Source: Squalus acanthias
Lineage: Eukaryota
Direction of reading: 5' to 3'
Length of the DNA: 64,000 nt
Assembly (NCBI GenBank): GCA_030390025.1
Contig: CM059429.1
Location: 15,686,001 to 15,750,000, forward strand
Under the pieces are notes generated by a model. The model was not told the origin of the DNA and made no database searches. It saw nothing but the letters and a program-made list of their open reading frames with translations. The first letter of the stretch is position 1. Each line of letters opens with the position of its first letter. Shown piece by piece: positions 1-59,600 of this stretch. Position numbers and translations under genes: made by a program.

Positions 1-858
1 AACACATTTAGTAGGTGCATCAGTTCAAATATTGAGCTTGTTCTAATTGCTACTTTTTCCTCACCTTTTGCTTAAGATATGAAGAATTTGGGATTAAATG
101 GGTTTTTAATTTGGTTTTCATTTTAAAGATTGTATAGGGTTTCATCAATTTAAATTGTGTTTAAGAGCATAGATAGTGATAGGATGTGGAGGAAAAACTG
201 ATCTTGCAGGTTTGCCCATTCTACTATTAATACACATACTGTAATTATAAACATCCAAGTTTGACTTTAAGCACAGGCTTTCTTCTCTACTTTCATTCTT
301 ATTTTGTTGAAGTAGGGGGAGCTCTCCAGGCAAGCTTGATGTGTTGCCCACATAGGGAACTTTTTAATTCTGTATCTTGCATGTGCTATACCTGACTTGA
401 ATGATGCCGGTAGTGTAAAAGCAGGCAAACACTTCCCAGTGCTTGTACCCCCCTCTAAAAATTATACGAACTGAAGCTACCATACATTAATGTAGCAAAA
501 ATGGCATTTTGGCAACTCTTGCTGAAATCTGATTTTTTTTAAATTAAATATTCCAATCCTTCATCCTATTCAAATATTTAAAAGCTATTGACTTGCTTTA
601 ATTCTAATGGAACATTTAAGTTGAGTGTAATTTACTACAAATGTCATCGCTTTGGTCTATTCAGACTAGAAATTCAAAATTGTGAACAAATTGACTAGTT
701 TTCTTAAACATTACTATGTACAGCAAATAAATTGATGTACTTATTCCCAAATCAGGCTTAAAATCTTGACCTGACTCATGTAACTCTAAACTATACTAAT
801 GGGCAACAGAAAACGCTGGAAAAACTCAGCGGGCCAGACAACATCCGTGGAGAGAAAG

Positions 859-895
859 AGTTAACGTTTCAGGTCGATGACCTTTCGTCAGAACT
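859..895 (-). ncRNA. Minimal type I hammerhead ribozyme motif (PLE pLTR)
   Basis: Reverse complement reads AGTT-CTGACGA-A-AGGTC-ATC-GACCT-GAA-ACGT-T-AACT: stem I, CUGANGA core, stem II, GAAA, palindromic stem III. Confidence 0.7.
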
Positions 896-1366
896 GGGAA
901 GAGCCGGAAATCAAATAGATTTAAGGCCAGGGTAAAGCTGGGAAAAGGGGGAGGGGATAAAGGAACAAAGGGGGAGATGAAGAGACATTAAGAGATGTGC
1001 AAGGCTAGAGGTGGTGTAAATGTGACAAATTAAGGCTGAAAGAAGTGTGAAATCCACTGGCAGAATGAAGGACTGCTGCCAGCTTCTAGGAGGGGGAAAA
1101 AAAGGTGGGGGGGGGGGGGGCAAATAAAAGGGTGGGAAAAATAAAATATAAATGTGATTGGAGCTGAGGTTATGATCTAAAATTGTTGAACTCGATATTG
1201 AGTCCAGAGGGCTGTAGCGTGCCTAAACGAAAGATGAGGTGCTGTTCCTCAAGCTTACGCCTTGCATATCTCTTAATGTCTCCATCTCCCCCTTTGTTTC
1301 TTTATCCCCTCCCCCTTTTCCCAGCTTTACCCTGGCCTTAAATCTATTTGATTTCCGGCTCTTCCC

Positions 1367-1403
1367 AGTTCTGACGAAAGGTCATCGACCTGAAACGTTA
1401 ACT
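1367..1403 (+). ncRNA. Minimal type I hammerhead ribozyme motif (PLE pLTR)
   Basis: AGTT CTGACGA A AGGTC ATC GACCT GAA ACGT T AACT. Confidence 0.7.
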
Positions 1404-2829
1404 CTTTCTCTCTCCACAGATGTTGTCTGGCCCGCTGAGTTTTTCCAGCATTTTGTTTCGGATTTCCAGCATCCGCAGTATTTTGCTATCGTATACTAAT
1501 GGGCAAATGTGTGTTCTTCCTACAGACCTCTCTTTTTTTCTTGTCCCTCCACCCCTGTGATTCTGCAATCCAGCCCACTAGTACTTTGTCTAAATGGTCA
1601 TTCTTGTATTCAATCCATCAGTCAAGCTTGATCTTGTCCAAACCTGTAAGTCAGTGCATAGTGATCAGGAATAGGAATCTTGCTTGTGCAGGTTCTCCTT
1701 TTTCCTCCGTCACCAAAAAATAAAGTTCAAGAACTGTACACCCTCCAGTGCTGCCCTAGTTCAAATTGGTTAACTCAGCACAAACCAGAGATCAACTGAG
1801 ACTGTCGTGGTATGTGATTTTGATTACTTCACGTGGATTTGAAAGACCACTGATTCATTCAGATGTTCCTGAATGAGTGCTAGGAAATAGCATAATAGAA
1901 AAATTATTCAAGATTAAGAATGTGGCAAAACAGTAAAGTCTGTAATGCATTAAATTTGGTACATACATGCACTCTATTTGGATGCATGTGGTACCTCAAT
2001 AGATTTGCCACTAAGTGAGCAGCTACTGTCTTTTTTAGATGGAGCTTCAAAAGCTCCAGTTCCCTGGGTTTCTGACTCTATCTTATTCAATTAAATTATT
2101 TTTCAATCTTTTTAAAATTGAACATAACATTTTCCTTTTTTCCTTTTTCAACCTCTTGCCACCTTTCAGCTTTTACTTTTCTTCCCCCCCCCCTTCCTGT
2201 TCAGTTAAATTATACTGCTGTCTACTCTTTACACCTGGGAGCCTGGAGTGCCCATATAAAGTTATTTTACATTTTAATATATTTAGTGCTCTACTGGCTT
2301 TGTGGGTCAAATTTTGATGATGGCATAATATAAATGTTATCCATCAATTTGCCGTAGGCCCATCTCCATGATGGTGGCTGTCCCGGCTGCTTTTATGAAC
2401 CCTCCGATGGCCCCTCCACTTTCCCATTGCTTCTGCTGTATTTTTTAAAAAGTTAATGATTTCATACCTATCTCGTGCTTCAGCTCAAGGTATTTGTGCC
2501 AGCTCTTGATGTGGCTCTCTTGGATGATGTCGTGCTCTTGCCTTGCATGTATTGAGTCTGTAGCAGCATTTTTTAATTGTCCTTTTCCCCTTTTTTTGTG
2601 GAGCTTACTCAACCCACACAATATTCTGAAGAAGGTAACTAATAGTTTTTACTGATAAGTGATATTCCACGGTGCCAATCCAACCGTACTATTATCCCCA
2701 CAATTTTCAATCTCCCTATCCTATACCAATTCCATTGATTGGCTCCTCCAATTTCTTGGCAACACATTTCTGTAGAGAGCTTTATCCCTGCCATTTCTTG
2801 AAACCTTTAATGTAGCTTTCTCTTCTCCA

Positions 2830-14940: not shown

Positions 14941-15038
14941 TCTTGGTCTTTGTAATGGGAAAAGAAGGGGTCCACGGAGGAAAGTTGAATTTCAAGGCAT
15001 TCTCAATGGCACAATACTTGAAAGCGGCTGGGTTCTAG
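14941..15038 (+). CDS. PFN2: Profilin-2 terminal coding exon, isoform a type
   Basis: Polypyrimidine tract and acceptor ttctttcag, phase 1, then (V)[31 protein letters not shown]. Matches the human PFN2a C-terminus [32 protein letters not shown]; 98 bp. Confidence 0.95.
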
Positions 15039-15240
15039 TCAAGCCAGGATTGCTATTCAGTAGTTTAAAAAAAAAAAAATTGCTATTAAAGTTTCCTTTT
15101 AGCAGTCACCTACTCTTTCACATTGAAGTTACGGAAAGTTTAATAGCAATGGAGTGTTATGGGGGTATGAACCCATGTCTCCTTTGTTTCCCTGTAATGG
15201 TGGGGAAAGTTTAAATTTTCATTTTCCTTGTGTACTCCAG

Positions 15241-15338
15241 CATTGGTTGTAGTCATGGGAAAGGGAAGTGTCCATGGAGGGGTACTCAACAAGAAAGCAT
15301 TTACCATGGCTACATACCTGAGGAATTCTGGATACTAA
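15241..15338 (+). CDS. PFN2: Profilin-2 alternative terminal coding exon, isoform b type
   Basis: Acceptor ttttccttgtgtactccag, same phase, then (A)LVVVMGKGSVHGGVLNKKAFTMATYLRNSGY*. Matches human PFN2b [32 protein letters not shown]; 98 bp. Confidence 0.92.
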
Positions 15339-17095
15339 GCAGCCTCTCCCCGTCCACCTAGCAACTCATTCACCCTCACCACCCAGTTGCATTGGCAGTG
15401 CTACCAGACTGTAGTTGGTGTTTTTTTTTTAATTTATCCATTTCTGCTATCATTGTTTTCCTTAGCCCCTTTACCACTTAATTGTAATAACATTGTAGGT
15501 GTAATGGAAAGTAAATCCCATGTTTTGGCACCATTAGCACAATAACTAAATGGTGATATGCATGTTATTACTTTTGATATTGTTGCAAAAAATTGGGCTG
15601 ACTTGCTAAGCCTGGGCATTGCTTTGTTTTAGCATTTAGAAAGTTTATTGGCATCCAAAGTCACCAAACCAGGTTCTGATTATTCTTTCTCTCCCTTCCA
15701 CTTCCCCATTGAAGTACTTATTAAAAATTAAAAGGTGCTGGTAGTACAATCTAAAATTTAAGTGTTGCTGAGTCAGCACTTTGAGCAGTTGCATAGCTCA
15801 TTAGGTCTTCCTTTTTGTTTGAGCATGTTGGGAGGGAAAGTGCATGCAAATTCTGCTTGCCATAATATTCCTGACTTAGTTTACTTTCCTTGTAACTTCA
15901 TTGCCCGTTCTCATTGCTAAAGCACCTGGATTTTCCTTTAGTTTCAATACCTGTTTACATCTCCTGTATTGACAACCTTGCAGCAGTTTTGTGGGTGCAC
16001 TTTAATATGAACTTTTTAACACTAGTATTAAACCTTGTGCATCCTGACTTCATTGGGTGTAATTGCAGAACTGCTTTTGGGATGTGTAAAGACTTTTTTT
16101 TTCTCCCATGGCCATGTCACAATCCTGACTTTGATCAGTTTAATCTCCAGGGACATTCCATCTTTGCAATAGCTCAGGCACTTAAATGTTGTTTTGCCAG
16201 CTCCTTTAATCTAAGTTAACTTTTTAATAAAAGTTGCCATTTTGGACAATAGATATCCCAACATAACCATCTGGAGTGTGTCCAGTTTTGAGTGCTTCAT
16301 AGGACCAATTAAGTTGCAGCTTGGGGGTTTCCAAGAGGGCAGACTGCTGTAAAATGCCACGGTAAAGGATTACTGCCACCCCTCAATACTGTATTGGCAA
16401 TTTAGGTGAAGATATAAAAATTTGTCCATGAGAATGTTAATAATTGAAGGTCAAGTGCTTTTGTTAGTATCTGATGTGGGCTGGCAGTCTCCTAATATAG
16501 AAATCAAAAACTGTTCAAAATCTTTTTAAATCAAGGGAATTGATGCATTAGACCTGGTAAGCCCATGCTGCAGAAGGAAACTGTGGAAGAATTACCTTGT
16601 GCTCCTAGTTGTTTGGAAATCTGTGGAAATGTCTGTTTTGAGCACGGTACTAACTTGTGTTCAGTTCAAACAAAATTACAAAAGTTTTGTATTCACAAAT
16701 GAATAAAATGGGAGATGGTATTGGTTGGAATAATCACACTTGGCTGTCTTGTGAAATTATTTTGCAAATGTTTGTGTATCCTGTGCCATACTGCATAGAG
16801 ATTTGATCTGTTGCTGTTGTAAGATGGATTTTAACTGCCGCTGCAAGGCTTTCAGTTGAACGGCACTTCCTTAGGGGCGTTATTCTAGCATATACTCAAT
16901 GTTCAGGCCTTGTGAAATATGTACAGATTTAAAAATTCTTGTTGCTGACTTGTCCATTTTCTTTCCCTGCACTTTTGTTACATCTGGGATACAGTCTAAC
17001 TCATCTGATTTAATATGCATTTACGAAATGCCATAACTGTTCAACCACCTTGTTTACAGACAGATGAAATAAATTTATTCCAACCAGATGTTGGC
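15339..17095 (+). promoter_or_regulatory. PFN2: PFN2 3'UTR with candidate polyA signals
   Basis: Repeat-free region. AATAAA at 16226, 16702 and 17068; the last is followed by a GU-rich tract. End point inferred. Confidence 0.6.
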
Positions 17096-20149: not shown

Positions 20150-21545
20150 TTGCAAGGCTAGTAAACTGTATACAGTATTGGGATGCATTGCTAGGACAAT
20201 TCAATACTTAAAAAAAGTACCATGATGTCCTTGTACAGGCCTTGGTTAGGCCTTTAGAATACTATTCAGTTTTAGTCGCCCAACATGTGTTTTTAAACCC
20301 TGGACAAGGTTCAGAGGAGGGTCACTAGTGATGCATAATTTAAGAGCCCTTGGTTACCCGATAGGTTTAGTCTAGGGGGCATGATTAAGAAGTTTGCAGA
20401 TTATGCAAAAGTTGGCTGTGGTTTAACACTGCAGGAAGATATCAATGGACTAGTCAGGTGGGCAGAAAAGTGGCAAATGGAATTCAATTCAGAGAAATTA
20501 GGTAATGCATTTGAGGAGGGCTAACAAGGCAAGGGAATACACAATAAATGGTAGGATACTGAAGTGTAGAGTAAGAGGGACCTTGAAGTACAGATCCCTG
20601 AAAGTAGGACAGGTGGATATAAGGTGGTTAAAAAGGCATATGGGATACTTTCCTTTATTAGCTGAGGCATAGAATACAAGAGCAGGGAGGCTATGCTTGA
20701 ACTGTATGAAACACTAGCTAAGGCCACAGCTAGAGTAGTGTACAGTTCTGGTCACATTACAGGAAAGATGTGCTTGTACAAGAGGGGAGATTTGAGGATG
20801 TTGCTAGGACTGGAGAATTTTAGCTGAGGAAAGATTGGAGAGGCTGAGGGGAGATTTGATTGAGGTGTATAAAATTGAGGGGCCTAGCTAGAGTGGATAG
20901 GAAGGACCTATTTCCCCTGGCAGAGAGGTCAATAACAGGCATAGATTTAAACTACAGGAAACTCTATTAACCGGCACCGACGGGGTGCCGGTTAATCAAA
21001 AGTCTGGATAACGGAGAGTTATATCTCCCAACGTACAAGAGCCCCGTACACACTGACATGCGCCTGCATTCGGCGCTCCGTCTCCCCGGGGACCGCCAGC
21101 TGACCATCTGTCGTGTCCGCTGCCTACCCGGGCTGCACATTCCCCTCCCAATCTACACGCTCCAATACAAGGTAAACGCCTCGGGGTTTTTTTCAAAGTT
21201 ATTTTTAAAGGAGAGATGAAGGAAAACCCCGGTTACCTACTCAAGAATTTTGCCGGTAGAGAGATTTCTGGTTATTTGGGTGCCGGTTAAAAGAGTTTCC
21301 TGTAATTGGTAGAAGAATTAGAGGAGTTGAGATCTTTTTTTCACTCAAAGGGTGGTGTGTGTCAGTCTGGAATGCATTGACTGAAAGGGTGGTAGAGGCA
21401 GAAACACATTTAAAAAATACCTGGATATGCACTTGGTCACAGGCTTGTAGGTTACAGCACTAAGCCTGAAAGTGAGATTAGGCTGGATAGCTCTTTGTTT
21501 GGCCTGCAGACATGATGGGTTGAATGGCCTCCTGTGCCATCAATT
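20150..21545 (+). mobile_element. CR1 LINE fragments interrupted by a MITE
   Basis: Degenerate KFADY...WAEKWQMEFN...YGILSFI; homologous to 55400-56340. Confidence 0.75.
20955..21302. mobile_element. Tc1/mariner-superfamily (Tigger/pogo-like) MITE, copy 1
   Basis: TIR CAGGAAACTCT.TTAACCGGCAC at both ends; TA TSD at 20953-54 and 21303-04; close copy at 59601-59965. Confidence 0.85.
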
Positions 21546-22560
21546 TTTAGGAAGTGGAGTTTCTTACTCTAGAAAAGTATGCTGAGAATTTAATTGGAAT
21601 ATTTAAAATAAAGGGACTAGATAGGGGCTGAGTGGATAGACTATTTCAATTAGATAAGTTGGGGAGAACCAGGGGACATACAGACAAGTTATGAAAGCAT
21701 AGAACTAGGTTAGAAGTCAGGAAGGTTCTTCTGCACAGGATGATCAACCTCTAATAGTTGCCAGTTTGTGCAGAGTGGATTCACTGCAAACGTTCAAGAG
21801 AGCTGGATGAAGTCCTGGCTGAGGCCGATTATCAGTGCAAGCAAAAGGTAGGTGAGATATTGGGTGATATGTCTCATGGTCACTGGTGTTCTGATTGCCT
21901 TCAAGAATCAGCAATTTCCCAGAATATTTTTTCTGTGAATTGGCCAATAACACTTTGCCTTTCCCAGATAACATGGCTGCTGATGAGTGGAGTGGGTCAA
22001 AAAGCTTAATTGAGCCTGTGCCATACAATCCTGCAATGACCAACTGCTTTTCCTGTTATTTTTGTATGTTCATAGCCATGTGGCCATTCTTTACATGAGC
22101 CTAGATGATGCACATTGGCAGGCTCTTTGACCCTGTTGTCAACCCACAGATGCACTTTCCCTGCAGGAGTCACTGCATAGTAACAAGCCCCCTGGCTGAT
22201 TTCATTACTCCTTGGCCCAGGGTCCCAGACCACAGTTGTATCCTACATAGCACGGCCTGAGATGAGACCAGCTAACTCCGCACAAACCAGGGATAAAAGC
22301 TCAAATGTTCTATTATATAGGCCCTAATGCTAATTTGGTAGTGTCTTTAACCTACCAGGGGTCCAGGGATTTCTTAATCAAAAGTTTATCAGCCTGCTCA
22401 AATTGGTCATCTCATGGTAAGACTCAATTCATGTGGCTACATTACAGGGGAAAAAAAAAAAAATCTAGCCTTATGGCAATAACTTCAGTTGTTGAACTCA
22501 AATACAGCAAGCATTTCAAAGGCAACACATGCCATTGATTCATTCACTACTGCATTAGAA

Positions 22561-22802
22561 ACAAAAATGAGAAGTCGCACAACACCAGGTTATAGTCCAA
22601 CAGATTTATTTAATTTTACAAGCTTTCGGAGCTGTCGCTCCTTCCTCAGGTAAGTTAACCTAAGCTAACTTACCTGAGGAAGGAGCGACAGCTCCGAAAG
22701 CTTGTAAAATTAAATAAATCTGTTGGACTATAACCTGGTGTTGTGCGACTTCTCATTTTTGTCCACCCCAGTCCAACGCCGGCATCTCCACATCATGACC
22801 TC
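22561..22802. mobile_element. Penelope-like inverted pLTR pair (second family), perfect palindrome
   Basis: Arms 22561-22657 and 22666-22762 are exact reverse complements around an 8-nt loop, followed by a ~40-bp extension. Near-TSD CATTAGAAACAA (22553-64) / CATTAAAAACAA (22803-14). Confidence 0.8.
22670..22707 (+). ncRNA. Minimal hammerhead ribozyme motif, mirrored on - strand at 22616-22653
   Basis: TTAC CTGAGGA A GGAGC GACA GCTCC GAA AGCT T GTAA. Confidence 0.7.
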
Positions 22803-22949
22803 CATTAAAAACAAGACAGTCCTTTGGAAACCATTGTCTTATAATACTCCTGTGATGCACCTTAGGACATTTTACTACGTTAAAGGCGCTAAATAAATAC
22901 AAGTTGTTAAAATGATCACAACTTAACCCAACTTTCCACTTTACATAAG

Positions 22950-25900
22950 TTTATTTGAAAAGAACTGGTATTGAAGAACTGAATACATTTTTATTATGAG
23001 TGTTCTTTATTTACAACTCTTGTACAGTTACAGCAGATATAAAGAATGGAATTCAGAAATGAACTCTTATGCTTTGAAATGTCTACACAATCCATTTACT
23101 TACTTATGGGAATGTGTCACAAAAGTTAGAAAAAATCAAATTTATCTTTGGGAGTCAACTTAATGTAAATTTTTCCAAAAATGTAAATGGATGCTGGGTG
23201 GAGGATAGGACAAAGCAGCATAAAGAGGGATTCATGAATTTTTTTTGGACACATTCCCTTACTAGTCATGTTAGTGTAATTAAGTTTTAAAAAAATGCAG
23301 GTTAAAAATCAAGTACAAAATTAGTTAAATGGAATGACTTTACATACATTATCACAACAGTCTAAACTATACAACCTAGTAGCCTCTGTGCACCAATATT
23401 AAATTATAGTAACATTTCAAAATGCAGTGGCAAATACAACACTTTAACCTAAAGCTGATTAGTACAATACTCTTGTACTTGGGTAATATTTAATTATAGT
23501 AAATGAAAATAAAAATGTCACAAAGGATCAGAGCTGTGCCAGTCAGAGCTCCCATGGATGTTGGACACGTGAATTAAAGTTGGACTGCCCACAAATAAAA
23601 ATTTCCTGCACTCTACAAGTCATCTGCCTTTTGGGAGAGGGAGCAAGCCATGTCTCATAACAGCAATGCATTGTCTACCACCAGAACAGATTTTTTGAAC
23701 GTGTTAACATTCCTGTGGTATAAAGCATTGCAACAGCTCATGAAAGGGATGATCTTTATGCATGCCAGCTTTATTTTCTTTAAAAAGGGTTCACCAGTCT
23801 GCAGCCGTGGATCACAATGAAGTCATCCCATGTTTATCAATACTGGATAAAAAGGTTACCCAACAATTTAAGTAGGACAAGTTTGGAAACAAAGGGGCAT
23901 TTGTTGAATACTGTCATGTTATGCCAACAACTCCACAACAGGGTAGAATTCTAAAGGAACCATCTTAGAACAAGTAATATATAAACTCACCTGTATGAAA
24001 TCACAGCAGCTAACAGGCACTCTGTTCTGAACACATACCAAACACAAACTGGTACCTTTTATCCCAGGAAAGAGATTTTTCTGTATCTCAAGCTACAGTA
24101 ACAAAATGCCATTGAGGAAGGGAACTTAGAGCTACTATTGCATTTCTCCAGAGTCTGATTTATCAGTTTTAGTTTTGAGAGGCCCTCAGCAAAGATTTCT
24201 GAGAGTTACATTAAAGTTTGCATTGAGCTGCTGAGAGACTAGTTGACTGTCTCTAACTCCCAGCTCTCCCATTTGATTTATTGCACAGCCTACACAAACT
24301 TTGTCACCAATCATTTCCACTAAACTTGAATAAACCTCAACATGCTTCCACCTCACTTATTACCCTCATCTGCTGTTCCAAAATTCTGAAGGGACTATGT
24401 CCAGGAAACATTACAGCGGAATATAGATAATCTCATAACTGATCCCTATTTTTGGTGGGAGAGGGATAAGATATCAGATCTTTATAACTTTTTTAAGCAG
24501 AACAAGGCATGTACCCTTTCAGTTAAAATTCGCAAGATTCGAACACCAAACAAGCATATCTAACACCTGCCCTAAAAATAAAGAAAGACATTACTGCTGT
24601 TTTAGGAGGAGTTGGAAGGGGATTAGTGAAAGAAACAAAATCAAACTTTTTTTTTAAAGTTTAATGTGGGATTACTTACTGCACTTTGCATCAATAGCTC
24701 TCTGTACAGTAATTTTTTCTAAATATCTAGTAGGACCAAATGGATGGAAGACACCAAGAACATATTCAATCCGTCTCCATCTTAAGAGAAATGCCCAAAC
24801 ATGCCAAGCGTGCAACAGGAGTCGAACGTTAAGATGCATCATTCCAATTATAAGAATTTTTTTAATCTCAAAAGATTATGAGCCACATTAATTGTGTATT
24901 ATCCCATCTAGTCCTGACATTACAGCACTTGAATTGTCACATGAATTAGGTTTTCCCTACATAATTCCAATGGACAATTCATTATCACTGTAAAATAGCA
25001 CAGATCTTTTTCCTCTCCCTTGAAAATATCTATTTTTGAGTGATGAGGTGCAGGAGTTAGAAACAAATATCTTCGGTTATATGGAGTTTACAGTGACGTT
25101 TGATAACATTTTCCTCAGACATAGATAGCAGTTAGGGACCAGCTGAACAACTTCAAACAAATTATGGCAAATCATATCACATCCAGTCAGCACCGTCACC
25201 ACAATCGTAGGCATAGTTTGGAAACTAATTCCATTATAGCATTTTTATTAAGGATCACCTTCACTTTCAAGATTTTCTTTATACACCGAGATGGTGCATT
25301 GTGCAATACATACAACTGCAGAATGAACAGAATGACGTAGAATAAACTTTGTTCAAGTAGCTCAAATTAAAAATCTACTTGAGAATTATACACATAAAAT
25401 AATGTTTTGCACTACTTACTGGATCCTTCTTGATAAATGCAATCCAAAATATCCTATCACCTTAAAATAAAACTGGAAACAGTAATTACAAAGAGTTTAT
25501 ACATAGTGCACAGTAGAAAATTAGCCTTTTTGCTGTCAATCCTGCATTCCTACTTAATTCTGTGGGTCAATTTATTGTTGATTTATAGTAACTGAAACCA
25601 GGTACAGAATTTCCCTACTTAAAAATCAAATCCAAAATGAGTTGAGAATTTCAGCTTCAATGATAATCCTGATTTGGTCAAATACTCAAAGCAAGACATA
25701 CTTACATCTGAAACAATTAGTAGGATTCTTGGGTTCTGGTGCAGAATATACAGGAAATTGATAAAATAACATGATTTAAACATTTTACAAAGAAACAGAG
25801 TCATTCAGCCATCTTTGTATTCAAGTTTTTTTGTGTTAAAGTCATTCTCTTAGTATCTGTGTAACTTGTTGAACCCGAATACCACGGTTGGGTGATCAAA

Positions 25901-26240: not shown

Positions 26241-26635
26241 TCAAACTATTGCGGACGGCTCTCTGGTTCCTCTCTCTCCAACGATGGCTTCAGGGTTTTC
26301 CTGCTGCATCTGAACTACCGTTTCTTCATTGACTCCATCCTCAACATCGCTGCTATCTCCCTCTTCCTCCTCCTCTTCATATTCAGAGGACTCCACTGCT
26401 TCTTGGTGAGATTGGGATTCCGACATGGTACCAAAGGAGTGAGCACTGGTGGAGGCAAGTGACGATCTCAGCAGAGGCGTGTTCTCGGAGGCATCATCGT
26501 TTTCTTCGTGGCTGCTGTCTACATCATCAGTTTCTGAATCAGATTCTCCCTGAGATGCTACCACCTTCTGTTTGCAGACAGGGCAGGTCTTCTTTGTTCT
26601 AGTCAGCCACGGGTCCACACATTTACAGTGGTATG
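26241..26635 (-). CDS. RNF13: E3 ubiquitin ligase RNF13, last coding exon
   Basis: Acceptor cccag, then (A)YHCKCVDPWLTRTKKTCPVCKQKVV...ENTPLL...SAHSFG...SSEYEEE. Second half of the RING-H2 plus the RNF13-type acidic tail; adjacency to PFN2 as in human supports RNF13 over RNF167. Confidence 0.95.
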
Positions 26636-27326
26636 CTGGGTACATAAAAGAGAGGGAACCAAAAAAAAATGTATTTAAACAGTATGAAATTTGCACCCCT
26701 CAATGTTATTTGGAAGTTCTGCAAAAAAATTAAACATATATATCCTTCAGCCTACTGTTAATTCAGCTGACAGAAAGGCTCGTGTGGAACATAAACACTG
26801 ACATAGACCTGTTGGGCTGAATGGCCTGTTAGTGCTCCCACCTGTACACTGGAACATTACATCCTCATCATCAAAAGCCAGTTAACAATACTTAACATGT
26901 TTTTTCTATTTCCTTTTTACTTGTTTTTTTTAAATTAAACGGACATAGATTGAAGACTTGACCTTAAAAGTAGGTACTGCCTCAATAGCAGGAGGAATCT
27001 GAACAGAGAGTACTGAAATATAAATTGCAGAAATATAATTTACGTTTGGTCATTAATTCAGCTGCATCCCATGGTCAATCCCAAGGAACAATTTACATTT
27101 TGTTTAAAAAACGAACATTTTGGATCTTCAGTTTTATTTTTAAAAAGTGGTTCATGATGTTACTGCTTAAATATTATTAAAACTTAAGCAAAGGCAACTG
27201 GGTAGGTGCGAGAAAGAATCTTGTAAATCTGGTCACGCAAAGCACATTAAAAACATTTTTACATTCAGTACAAGCACGGCTGTATAAATGAGAGTTTGGT
27301 TTGACCTGGAGTCATAAAATCTTAAC

Positions 27327-57367: not shown

Positions 57368-57842
57368 GTCAGCCGTGGCTCAGTTGGTAGCACTCTTGAA
57401 CCCACAACCTTCTGACTCGGAGGCAAGTCCCACTCCAGAGACTTGAGCACAAAAAAAAAAAAATCTACGCCGACACTCCAGTGCAGTGCTGAGGGAGTGC
57501 TGCACTGTTGGAGGTGGCGTCTTTTGAATGAGACGTTAAACTGAGGCCCCATCTGCTCTCTCAGGTGGATGTAAAAGATCCCGTGGCGCTATTTCGAAGA
57601 AGAACAGGGGAGTTCTCCCCGGTGCCCTGGCCAATATTTATCCCTCAACCAACACCCAAAAAAACCAGATTATCTGGTCATTTATCACATTGCTGTTTGA
57701 GGGAGTTTGCTGTGTAGAAAATGGCTGCCGTGTTTCCTACATTACAACAGTGACTACACTTCAAAAAGTACCTCATTGGTTGTAAAGCGCTTTGGGATTT
57801 CCTGAGGTTGTGAAAGGTGCTATATAAATGGAAGTTTTTTTC
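57368..57842 (+). mobile_element. Full-length SacSINE1-like DeuSINE with an internal micro-inversion
   Basis: Box A TGGCTCAGTTGG, Deu-like domain, tail aaaggtgctatataaatg. Confidence 0.75.
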
Positions 57843-59600
57843 TCCATCCACTAAGAGTGAAGGAAGTTGCCAGCTGGTTGCTGTAACAGCTGGTTGTACA
57901 ATCAGCACGGGCTCAGCTCACTGACACTGTTTAAATTTACAGTTCGAATCAAAATGCTGGTAAGTGGAGTGCATGCTGACTGTATGATCGGTCATTACAG
58001 TACCCGACCGGTTGGTTGAGGGATAACTAGTGGCCAGGACACCGGGGAGAACTTCCTTCACTCCTAAGCATACTGATAAAAGCAGAGCAGCAGCCTTTAA
58101 AACACACCTTTGATTAAAAGGGGGACTTGAAGTAGGGTGAAAGGAGGTGTGTAGGGAGCAATAAACACCTGCATAAACCTGTTGGGTCGAATGGCCTGTT
58201 TCTGTGCTGGAAATTTGATGCAATTCTATGTAAAAACTAAAATGCGAGTACAGAAACCGACAAAGAAAGTTGTGTGGCGTGAAGAATCGTTTGATTTAAT
58301 CGCCAGATATTGCCAAGGCAAAAATCACTCGCTCTAATTGTCATCCAAAACAGCTGTTGACAAAAAAAAACCGCCAAACACATATAACCCCCAAACTAAA
58401 CAACACCATCCCATAAAAAGCAGATACATTTGAGAGATTCAAGGCTTTAATCTGATCACTCAGGCTTGATTTTTGTACAATATCTGAATGTGCGACTCAG
58501 GTTACTTACTGCCTTGCAATCACTTGCAGCTATTTATCAAGCTCCGTTACCCCAGCTCGCAATACTGTGCCTCCAAGGTCAAAAAACAACATCTTGGCTT
58601 TGGAAACCTCAGTTCCCTTTCTCTATCAGATATTAGGTTGCTCACCAAAAACAAATACTTTCTTTTTATGGATGCGCTGTAGATCGAAGCTTTGAATTCC
58701 CTGTTTGTTTCAAGCCACAGGGATCTGGGCTAAAGCAATACGTACAGCTAGGGAAGAGGGGGTAGGGCTTGAAGAAACATGACAGTGTGTAATGTTTCAT
58801 CAGTTACTCAAGATAGAAACATAAACCACATTAAAACAAAACTTTACTGTAATGCTTTCTATTGGCAAGTTCCAGCCAGCACTATTTCTCACACAACTTG
58901 ATCAAGCTGTCTGGAAGAGGGGAGAGAGAAAGGCACAGGGCAAGGGGCAGCAGGAAGAGAGAAAGAGAGGGAAAAAAGGTGAGGGAGAGCAAGTGGAAAA
59001 ATGGGATTGTTGCCATAGGCTGCACTCTCGCCTCTTTGATCAGCGAGTCGGAATGGCAAAGGCCAACAATGGAACTAGGTTTCCATTAGCTTTTGCAGTA
59101 AAACATGCAAGAATATTACACAAGTGTCTAAATGTAATCAGAGGAGAGGGAAGGAGTATTTTTTTTTAAAAAGGGACCAGTAAACAATATAAAAATAAGT
59201 TTCGACAGTGATGTGGACATATTGATGGGCTAAAAGAGCTGAGAAGTGAGCAAACCTTGGAAACACCAGTGACAAGAAAGGAGAATATTTACAAAAGGCA
59301 ATATGGGAAAAGATAAGGTGGAGCCCATTTAAAAAAGAGGCAATAGTGAAAGCATACAAAAAATTTAACGGGACACCAAAAAGTTTAAATTACACCTAAT
59401 TTCACCACAAAACAGAAGGGGTGGGATTTGAAATAGCGATTCTTCACCTGACTAGGTGGTTTCCAGCATTACTTCATCGTTCCTCTTTGATCACTGCAGT
59501 CAGAGATGACCACAGGAATCCTAGGTCTTGAAATTATCAAGCATCAACAGAACAGGACCACTCAAAGGACCAACTAAGAGAGAGCAGCTCATAAGAAGTA

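What the first reader, a model, noticed from the sequence alone, without database searches (positions are those of the whole stretch)
22553..22814. Perfect 97-bp-arm palindrome encoding back-to-back hammerheads between two convergent gene ends
Seen: arms 22561-22657 and 22666-22762 with no mismatch and an 8-nt loop. Each encodes TTAC-CUGAGGA-A-GGAGC-gaca-GCUCC-GAA-AGCU-U-GUAA. Stem sequences differ entirely from the other pLTR family while keeping the same geometry (5-bp stem II, 4-nt palindromic stem III), which is in-window structural support for the ribozyme fold. The arms are identical although the presumed TSD has one mismatch, suggesting arm homogenisation or a recent insertion. It lies ~150-200 bp past the inferred distal RNF13 polyA cluster, so read-through RNA from either gene would form a long hairpin (possible Dicer/ADAR substrate, terminator or DNA cruciform).
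Basis: partly seen in the sequence, partly recalled or inferred. Interest (0 to 1): 0.7.

Follow-up and report, generated by a model that had tools for sequence, protein, structure and literature searches.

The report
Mirror-image stump of Penelope-like retroelement
This perfect DNA palindrome is a short, young insertion of a common jumping gene (a Penelope-like retroelement) whose ribozyme-bearing end sits twice, head to head; the shape is already described and recurs across this genome, and its position near a gene end is likely incidental.

Summary
Real, but ordinary. The 97-bp arms, 8-nt loop and two minimal hammerheads are as described. They form one 5'-truncated insertion of a Neptune/Nematis-type Penelope-like element (PLE): an inverted arm, 6 filler bases, a direct arm plus 40-nt tail, and a 12-bp target duplication.

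- The hammerhead core has 1301 exact copies in this genome. Of the first 100 listed, 50 form head-to-head pairs.
- All 28 two-armed insertions examined carry the tail on exactly one arm, and 11 of 28 have mismatch-free arms.
- Both window arms equal the family majority, so homogenisation is not needed.
- Two related species appear to lack the insert.
- The site lies about 150-200 bp past RNF13's candidate polyA signals but about 5.5 kb from profilin-2's.
- In read-through RNA the hairpin is predicted to abolish the ribozyme fold.

The architecture is published (PMC3846280, PMC8557442, PMC4209133). The scan has noted it before (82 findings, at least 11 genomes). The residual value is mechanistic: the arm ends fit two priming events on one RNA better than simple fold-back.

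The parts
22553..22564 (+). Left copy of the 12-bp target-site duplication; its last 4 bp also match the element's short end (microhomology)
   Evidence: orthologous contigs of organisms D and E align up to exactly 22564 and then diverge
22561..22657 (-). Inverted arm: 5'-truncated pLTR copy ending at the short 3' site, no tail; starts 8 nt upstream of the hammerhead core
22616..22653 (-). Minimal type-I hammerhead in the inverted arm; predicted cut between 22620 and 22619
   Evidence: cut site by standard hammerhead numbering (inference)
22658..22663 (.). 6 filler bases at the head-to-head junction, not found in the full-length copy L079; junction unique in the genome
22664..22762 (+). Direct arm: 5'-truncated pLTR copy, starts 10 nt upstream of the hammerhead core
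   Evidence: 22664-22802 matches the pLTR/ORF start of L079 at 99.3% over 139 nt
22670..22707 (+). Minimal type-I hammerhead in the direct arm; predicted cut between 22703 and 22704
22763..22802 (+). 40-nt PLE tail, present on this arm only; ends with the first 8 nt of the element ORF (ATG at 22795)
22803..22814 (+). Right copy of the target-site duplication (1 mismatch to the left copy)
22834..22909 (+). Unrelated older high-copy repeat fragment between the insertion and the RNF13 polyA signals (context)
   Evidence: two more copies in the window at 84-91%; very high contig depth
22950..23011 (-). Three AATAAA hexamers, candidate distal RNF13 polyA signals (context)
   Evidence: a depth-152 contig of guessed-RNA run X8 ends at 23018
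26241..26640 (-). RNF13 last coding exon (context)
14941..15338 (+). Two alternative last coding exons of profilin-2 (context)

Best explanation
The palindrome is a single, young, 5'-truncated insertion of an endonuclease-bearing Penelope-like retroelement, made of two head-to-head copies of its hammerhead-bearing end between a 12-bp target duplication, and it likely formed in one step when both nicked target strands primed reverse transcription on the same element RNA. Shown: the element identity, the anatomy, and the recurrence of this layout in the genome. Inferred: the GIY-YIG endonuclease nicked the two strands 12 bp apart; one 3' end primed at the tail site (the ORF start) and the other at the site about 40 nt upstream; both cDNAs stopped 8-10 nt 5' of the hammerhead core; the two ends were joined with 6 filler bases. 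The arms are identical because they were made together, recently, from one template. The template was uncut RNA, since both arms extend 5' of the predicted ribozyme cut. The ribozymes are passengers: they are predicted to need a same-sense partner, the two copies lie on opposite strands, and a read-through RNA would fold into the long hairpin instead. The position past RNF13's 3' end is probably a tolerated landing site. Confidence is about 0.95 for identity and about 0.55 for two-site priming over fold-back.
For: 1301 exact copies of the 32-nt core (660 +, 641 -), control 0. Among the first 100 listed, 25 pairs lie within 5 kb, all 25 head-to-head. The same pLTR flanks an intact 892-aa ORF in L079 with YIDD, DKG, a CX4CX2C linker and a GIY-YIG-like motif with two internal cysteines; RT PF00078 is above cut-off in related copies L046 and L047. 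28 of 28 two-armed insertions have one tail end and one short end; a TSD was found in 27 of 28. Both arms carry the same subfamily allele in all 28 (0 mixed; p 4e-4 if independent). The arms' 5' ends are coupled: 14 of 23 resolved loci within 30 nt, permutation mean 3.7, 0 of 50000. The tail-less arm is the longer one in 11 of 23, by more than 30 nt in 5 (L019, L028, L042, L045, L047); copying a tail-bearing cDNA back on itself cannot give that. Orthologous contigs in two other organisms stop matching exactly at the TSD end. The central junction is unique. Literature: inverted pLTR, one-sided tail and 8-10-bp TSD (PMC3846280, passages); inverted 5'-truncated copy and 30-40-bp tail (PMC8557442, passages); both strands cut and extended, two RT start sites bounding the tail, ATT preference, ribozyme cleavage not needed (PMC11167929, main-text section); dual minimal hammerheads on opposite strands 100-700 bp apart (PMC4209133, parts 1-2 of 4).
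Against: No read or contig listed spans the central junction, and the flank junctions are covered by only 20-24 letters on the element side, under the tool's 31-letter rule. The empty-site letters in organisms D and E were not displayed, and both runs come from one study. Coupled 5' ends are also what fold-back predicts, and PMC3846280 favours self-priming. PMC11167929 reports RT starting at a site not homologous to the cut DNA, whereas many junctions here show 1-8 nt of overlap with the TSD (no chance control run). Clade was assigned by motifs, not by a tree. All two-armed comparison loci come from contig C1 and were selected for an exact core in at least one arm.
Confidence: 0.85

Rival explanations
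1. Same element, but the second arm is made by fold-back: one cDNA snaps back at its 3' end and is copied as a hairpin (self-priming).
For: Arm 5' ends are tightly coupled even in long inserts (418/411, 418/425, 516/524 nt). Centre overlaps of 1-7 nt occur in 13 of 28. PMC3846280 (passages) reads junction palindromes as self-priming.
Against: The tail-less arm is longer in 11 of 23 resolved loci, by more than 30 nt in 5. The window's centre holds 6 filler bases rather than a hairpin-forming overlap.
Confidence: 0.3
2. The hairpin has a host role at the RNF13 3' end (terminator, dsRNA for ADAR/Dicer, or an alternative polyA site using the AATAAA inside the arm), kept perfect by homogenisation.
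For: It lies about 150-250 bp past three minus-strand AATAAA. A depth-184 contig of guessed-RNA run X6 (organism B) reaches 22879, past all three hexamers. The hairpin is very stable. The left arm carries AATAAA at 22610 on the RNF13 strand.
Against: Apparently absent in organisms D and E. The arms equal the family majority and perfect arms are common. There is no excess of TSD over arm divergence. The main contig of guessed-RNA run X8 ends at 23018, before the element (weak hint, one study).
Confidence: 0.06
3. A self-spreading non-autonomous palindromic unit (retrozyme- or MITE-like) copied as a whole.
For: 3 of 25 listed pairs have a centre as short as this one; 5 of 23 loci have both arms ending within 16 nt of the core.
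Against: The 30-nt junction occurs once in the genome at up to 1 mismatch. Centres differ at every locus and form a continuous size series from 4 to 2818 nt. Retrozymes are tandem direct repeats (10.64898/2026.07.22.740005, abstract and passages).
Confidence: 0.03
4. Assembly fold-back artefact.
For: The arms are perfect, and no listed read spans the centre. PMC8557442 notes that such structures trouble short-read assemblies.
Against: A TSD on both sides, asymmetric ends and a non-palindromic filler; unique sequence on both flanks; the same layout in 28 of 28 loci; flank-to-arm contigs in two studies of organism A (below the bridging rule; X1 may be the assembly's own sample).
Confidence: 0.02

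Closest known systems
Insertions of EN+ Penelope-like elements with inverted pLTR, one-sided tail and TSD (Adineta vaga Pen2a, PMC3846280; general scheme in PMC8557442 Fig. 2 legend)
   Same: Head-to-head inverted pLTRs, 5' truncation, tail on one end only, short TSD, tail running into the ORF start.
   Different: Miniature: no ORF body between the arms, only 6 filler bases. TSD 12 bp (mostly 12-15 in this family) against 8-10 bp in the rotifer examples; tail about 40 nt against 31.
Neptune/Nematis clades of EN+ PLEs
   Same: C-terminal GIY-YIG-like endonuclease with internal cysteines and a CX2-5CxxC linker in the parent ORF L079.
   Different: Clade not settled by a tree. Whether this family is already named in Repbase or Dfam could not be checked.
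Minimal/variant type-I hammerheads of metazoan PLEs (PMC4209133)
   Same: Conserved core, bulged base before stem II, G10.1-C11.1 pair, short stem I, palindromic 15-16 region, and pairs on opposite strands.
   Different: 5-bp stem II (7-8 bp in Schistosoma); the two copies here are only 24 nt apart. No cleavage data for this family.
PAc (Poseidon of Anolis) in vitro mechanism (PMC11167929)
   Same: Two 3' end positions bounding a tail; both strands used; an ATT at both element end sites and in the TSD; uncut RNA as template.
   Different: Different clade; the hammerhead lies about 90 nt upstream of the ATG here rather than overlapping it; junction overlaps are seen here.
Non-LTR retrozymes
   Same: ORF-less, hammerhead-bearing and pLTR-related.
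   Different: Retrozymes are tandem direct repeats amplified as a unit; this is a unique inverted pair.

Membership tests
EN+ Penelope-like element | Single ORF with RT and C-terminal GIY-YIG endonuclease linked to the same pLTR | tested here: met
   892-aa ORF in L079 between two pLTR copies; PF00078 above cut-off in L046 and L047. Pfam gave no GIY-YIG hit; the endonuclease was recognised by motif only.
EN+ Penelope-like element | pLTRs in partial tandem and/or inverted, with 5' truncation | tested here: met
EN+ Penelope-like element | 30-40-bp tail on one end | tested here: met
   22763-22802 here; 28 of 28 loci have exactly one tail end
EN+ Penelope-like element | Short target-site duplication | tested here: met
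   12 bp with 1 mismatch; found in 27 of 28 loci; ortholog alignment ends at 22564
EN+ Penelope-like element | RT groups with PLE RTs in a phylogeny | not tested
Neptune/Nematis clade | CX2-5CxxC linker between RT and endonuclease | tested here: met
   residues 753-761 of the L079 ORF; definition from PMC8557442 passages
PLE minimal hammerhead ribozyme | Conserved core with stems I and II and a palindromic 15-16 region | tested here: met
   127 descriptor hits in 281,548 bases (overlapping loci chosen for the core, so not a density), 0 in each of 10 shuffles; stem I has a two-sided change within the family and wholly different stems in the second family. Rfam gave no hit.
PLE minimal hammerhead ribozyme | Self-cleavage (as a dimer or protein-assisted) | not testable with these tools
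   Needs an in vitro assay; the cofold of two copies did not give the active dimer
Non-LTR retrozyme | Tandem direct repeats amplified as a unit | tested here: not met
   Inverted, with a unique junction

The most novel reading that the evidence does not exclude
This palindrome and its siblings are a natural record showing that Penelope-like elements integrate by double priming: both nicked target strands start reverse transcription on one uncut RNA at two fixed sites about 40 nt apart. That single rule would explain the long-unexplained inverted pLTR, the one-sided tail and the coupled truncation points.
Probability: 0.45. Interest if true: 0.45.

Novelty: new member of a known kind. Interest (0 to 1): 0.15.

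Why it matters
As a locus it matters little: by extrapolation from 25 pairs per 100 listed matches it is one of roughly 300 such two-armed inserts of this subfamily alone. As a series, the inserts bear on a stated open point (PMC8557442 calls the origin of PLE tandem/inverted structures undefined). The one-tail/one-short rule, the shared subfamily alleles and the coupled but either-way-unequal 5' ends give predictions testable in the existing PAc in vitro system. A host role at RNF13 would matter more but has little support.

Tried and rejected
- Rfam: no hammerhead hit, only a chance MIR1513 match.
- DNA search of the own genome was empty because common words are skipped; patterns were used instead.
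- The profilin family search missed the window's short exons; the Pfam scan of 104 plus-strand frames found them.
- PDB search with the element protein: 0 hits.
- No holder on record as RNA was listed; the 'RNA' runs are guesses.
- No contig cover of the left flank at 22332-22547 in X6 and X8, or 22320-22543 in X7. This is not used as evidence. Low-depth (3-6) pieces lie at 21900-22266. X19 laid nothing.
- One search was invalid (the reference held two pLTR copies and alignments broke at a T-run). It was redone. Five loci (L016, L039, L044, L046, L048) were dropped because over 100 nt of their centres could not be placed.
- The 'unpaired centre' values are overestimates where indels stop the ungapped extension.
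- L032 gave no TSD because a 3-nt deletion broke my end-finding. TSD mismatches printed for L037 and L046 were read as edge extensions and not counted. The Fisher test used an approximate 12 bp per TSD.
- L001 and L021 (84-86% inverted hits) were left out of the 28.
- Cofolding two hammerheads did not give the canonical dimer; this is uninformative.
- The loop's filler bases were not found in L079 or in the nearby flank.
- Literature searches for this family in cartilaginous fish and for twin priming in PLEs listed no paper that describes either. The library is partial, and paper supplements were not read.

Full report
Observation. The inverted repeat is exactly as reported: arms 22561-22657 and 22666-22762, 97 nt, no mismatch, 8-nt loop. 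It is far beyond chance (z -27.6, 0 of 200 shuffles). Each arm holds a minimal type-I hammerhead with a 4-bp stem I, the conserved core, a bulged A, a 5-bp stem II and a 4-nt palindromic region. Rfam does not detect it. A descriptor scan of the fetched loci and the window gave 127 hits against 0 in each of 10 shuffles. It showed a two-sided change in stem I within the family and wholly different stems in a second family. The fold is therefore supported; cleavage is untested.

What it belongs to. The 32-nt core has 1301 exact matches in G000, with 0 for the reversed control. Of the first 100 listed (all on contig C1), 50 form 25 pairs within 5 kb, all head-to-head, with centres of 4 to 2818 nt. 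Longer members carry RT (PF00078). L079 holds an intact 892-aa ORF between two pLTR copies, with a CX4CX2C linker and a GIY-YIG-like motif with two internal cysteines. PMC8557442 (passages) gives these features for the Neptune and Nematis clades. Window 22664-22802 matches that copy's pLTR and ORF start at 99.3%, and the last 8 nt are the start of the ORF. That the host is a cartilaginous fish is my recall of this repeat plus the earlier notes; no call names it.

Anatomy and siblings. The insert reads: TSD 22553-22564, inverted short arm, 6 filler bases, direct arm, 40-nt tail to 22802, TSD 22803-22814. I compared 28 two-armed inserts: the 25 listed pairs, two loci with one inexact core (L004, L020) and the window. 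All 28 have the tail on exactly one arm, and 27 show a TSD, mostly 12-15 bp. Arms differ at 34 of 6726 bp; 11 of 28 have no mismatch; both window arms equal the family majority. Internal TSD mismatches occur in 3 of 27, not more than arm divergence (Fisher p 0.24). A lone mismatch lands in the TSD by chance with p 0.11. Homogenisation is thus unnecessary. The central junction is unique in the genome, so the palindrome is not copied as a unit.

Age and reality. Contigs of organisms D and E (one study) align over 21760-22564 with 35 and 38 substitutions. They then run on for 74 and 73 letters unlike the arm, which fits an empty site ending exactly at the TSD. The letters themselves were not displayed. 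Contigs of organism A from two studies run from the left flank 20-24 letters into the arm, and one covers the right junction. This is below the tool's bridging rule, and nothing listed spans the centre. An artefact is unlikely given the TSD, the asymmetric ends and the filler, but it is not excluded by reads.

Gene context. RNF13's last exon is on the minus strand, with AATAAA at 23011, 22995 and 22955. Profilin-2's two last exons end at about 15338. Its nearest AATAAA signals are at 16226-17073, with further plus-strand hexamers up to 21607; which are used is not shown. The insert is thus next to one gene end, not squeezed between two. In runs guessed to be RNA, the main contig ends at 23018 (X8) or reaches 22879 (X6), so some read-through towards the element is possible. 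Any RNA crossing it is predicted to form the long hairpin, with stem II pairing probability 0. The two ribozymes lie on opposite strands and cannot partner within one transcript. PMC4209133 (parts 1-2 of 4) found no cleavage for a single Schistosoma minimal motif, and PMC11167929 (main-text section) found none for PAc without protein.

How it likely formed (inference). Both arms always carry the same subfamily allele (0 mixed of 28; p 4e-4). Their 5' ends are coupled (14 of 23 resolved loci within 30 nt; permutation mean 3.7, after dropping 5 unresolved loci; one search was invalid and redone). So both arms come from one template in one event. The tail-less arm is the longer one in 11 of 23 loci, by more than 30 nt in 5. 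Fold-back of a tail-bearing cDNA cannot produce that without later deletion. Two priming events, one per nicked strand at the two RT start sites, explain it, and they match the PAc data: both strands cut and extended, two start sites bounding the tail. Against this, coupled ends are also natural for fold-back, which PMC3846280 (passages) favours, and PAc primes without homology while TSDs here often overlap the element by a few bases (no control).

Known and novel. Inverted pLTR, one-sided tail and TSD are published (PMC3846280, PMC8557442), as are opposite-strand hammerhead pairs (PMC4209133). The scan's index holds 82 findings with these words in at least 11 genomes, none at this place or by this sequence. 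These notes are leads, not support. My searches listed no paper on this family or on double priming in PLEs; the library is partial. Of PMC6155905 and the retrozyme preprint I saw passages only. Verdict: a real, ordinary new member of a known kind, interest 0.15.

Noticed in passing
window 792-1506: A second PLE family with the same layout: 198-bp inverted arms at 96% (810-1005 / 1259-1454), two opposing hammerheads, a one-sided extension and an exact 15-bp TSD.
   Followed up: partly
window 29160 (-), 50826 (+), 61635 (-): Further single hammerheads of the second family.
   Followed up: no
L079:1017-3695 (-), G000:C1: Intact 892-aa RT-endonuclease ORF in a partial tandem; with low arm divergence this suggests recent activity of the family.
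   Followed up: partly
L080:3628-3711; L081:1436-1590: In two ORF-bearing copies the upstream pLTR begins 3' of the predicted hammerhead cut (about core +46 and +57), and L081 has a small inverted piece in front. Could be random truncation or use of cut RNA.
   Followed up: no
L025, L041, L043: Near-perfect palindromes of about 1.0-1.2 kb (98-99%) persist in the assembly; of interest for palindrome stability in vertebrate genomes.
   Followed up: no
L056, L065, L068, L069, L071, L072, L075: 7 of 30 tail ends fetched run into a similar flanking sequence, suggesting a preferred target in another repeat that resembles the ORF start.
   Followed up: no
window 14941-15038 and 15231-15338: Two alternative profilin-2 last exons in tandem, as in the two mammalian profilin-2 isoforms (isoform parallel recalled).
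   Followed up: no
window 20950-21307: 29-nt inverted repeats (93%) 300 nt apart, like the termini of a small DNA-transposon derivative.
   Followed up: no
window 57608-58056: 46-nt inverted repeats at 91%, about 360 nt apart.
   Followed up: no
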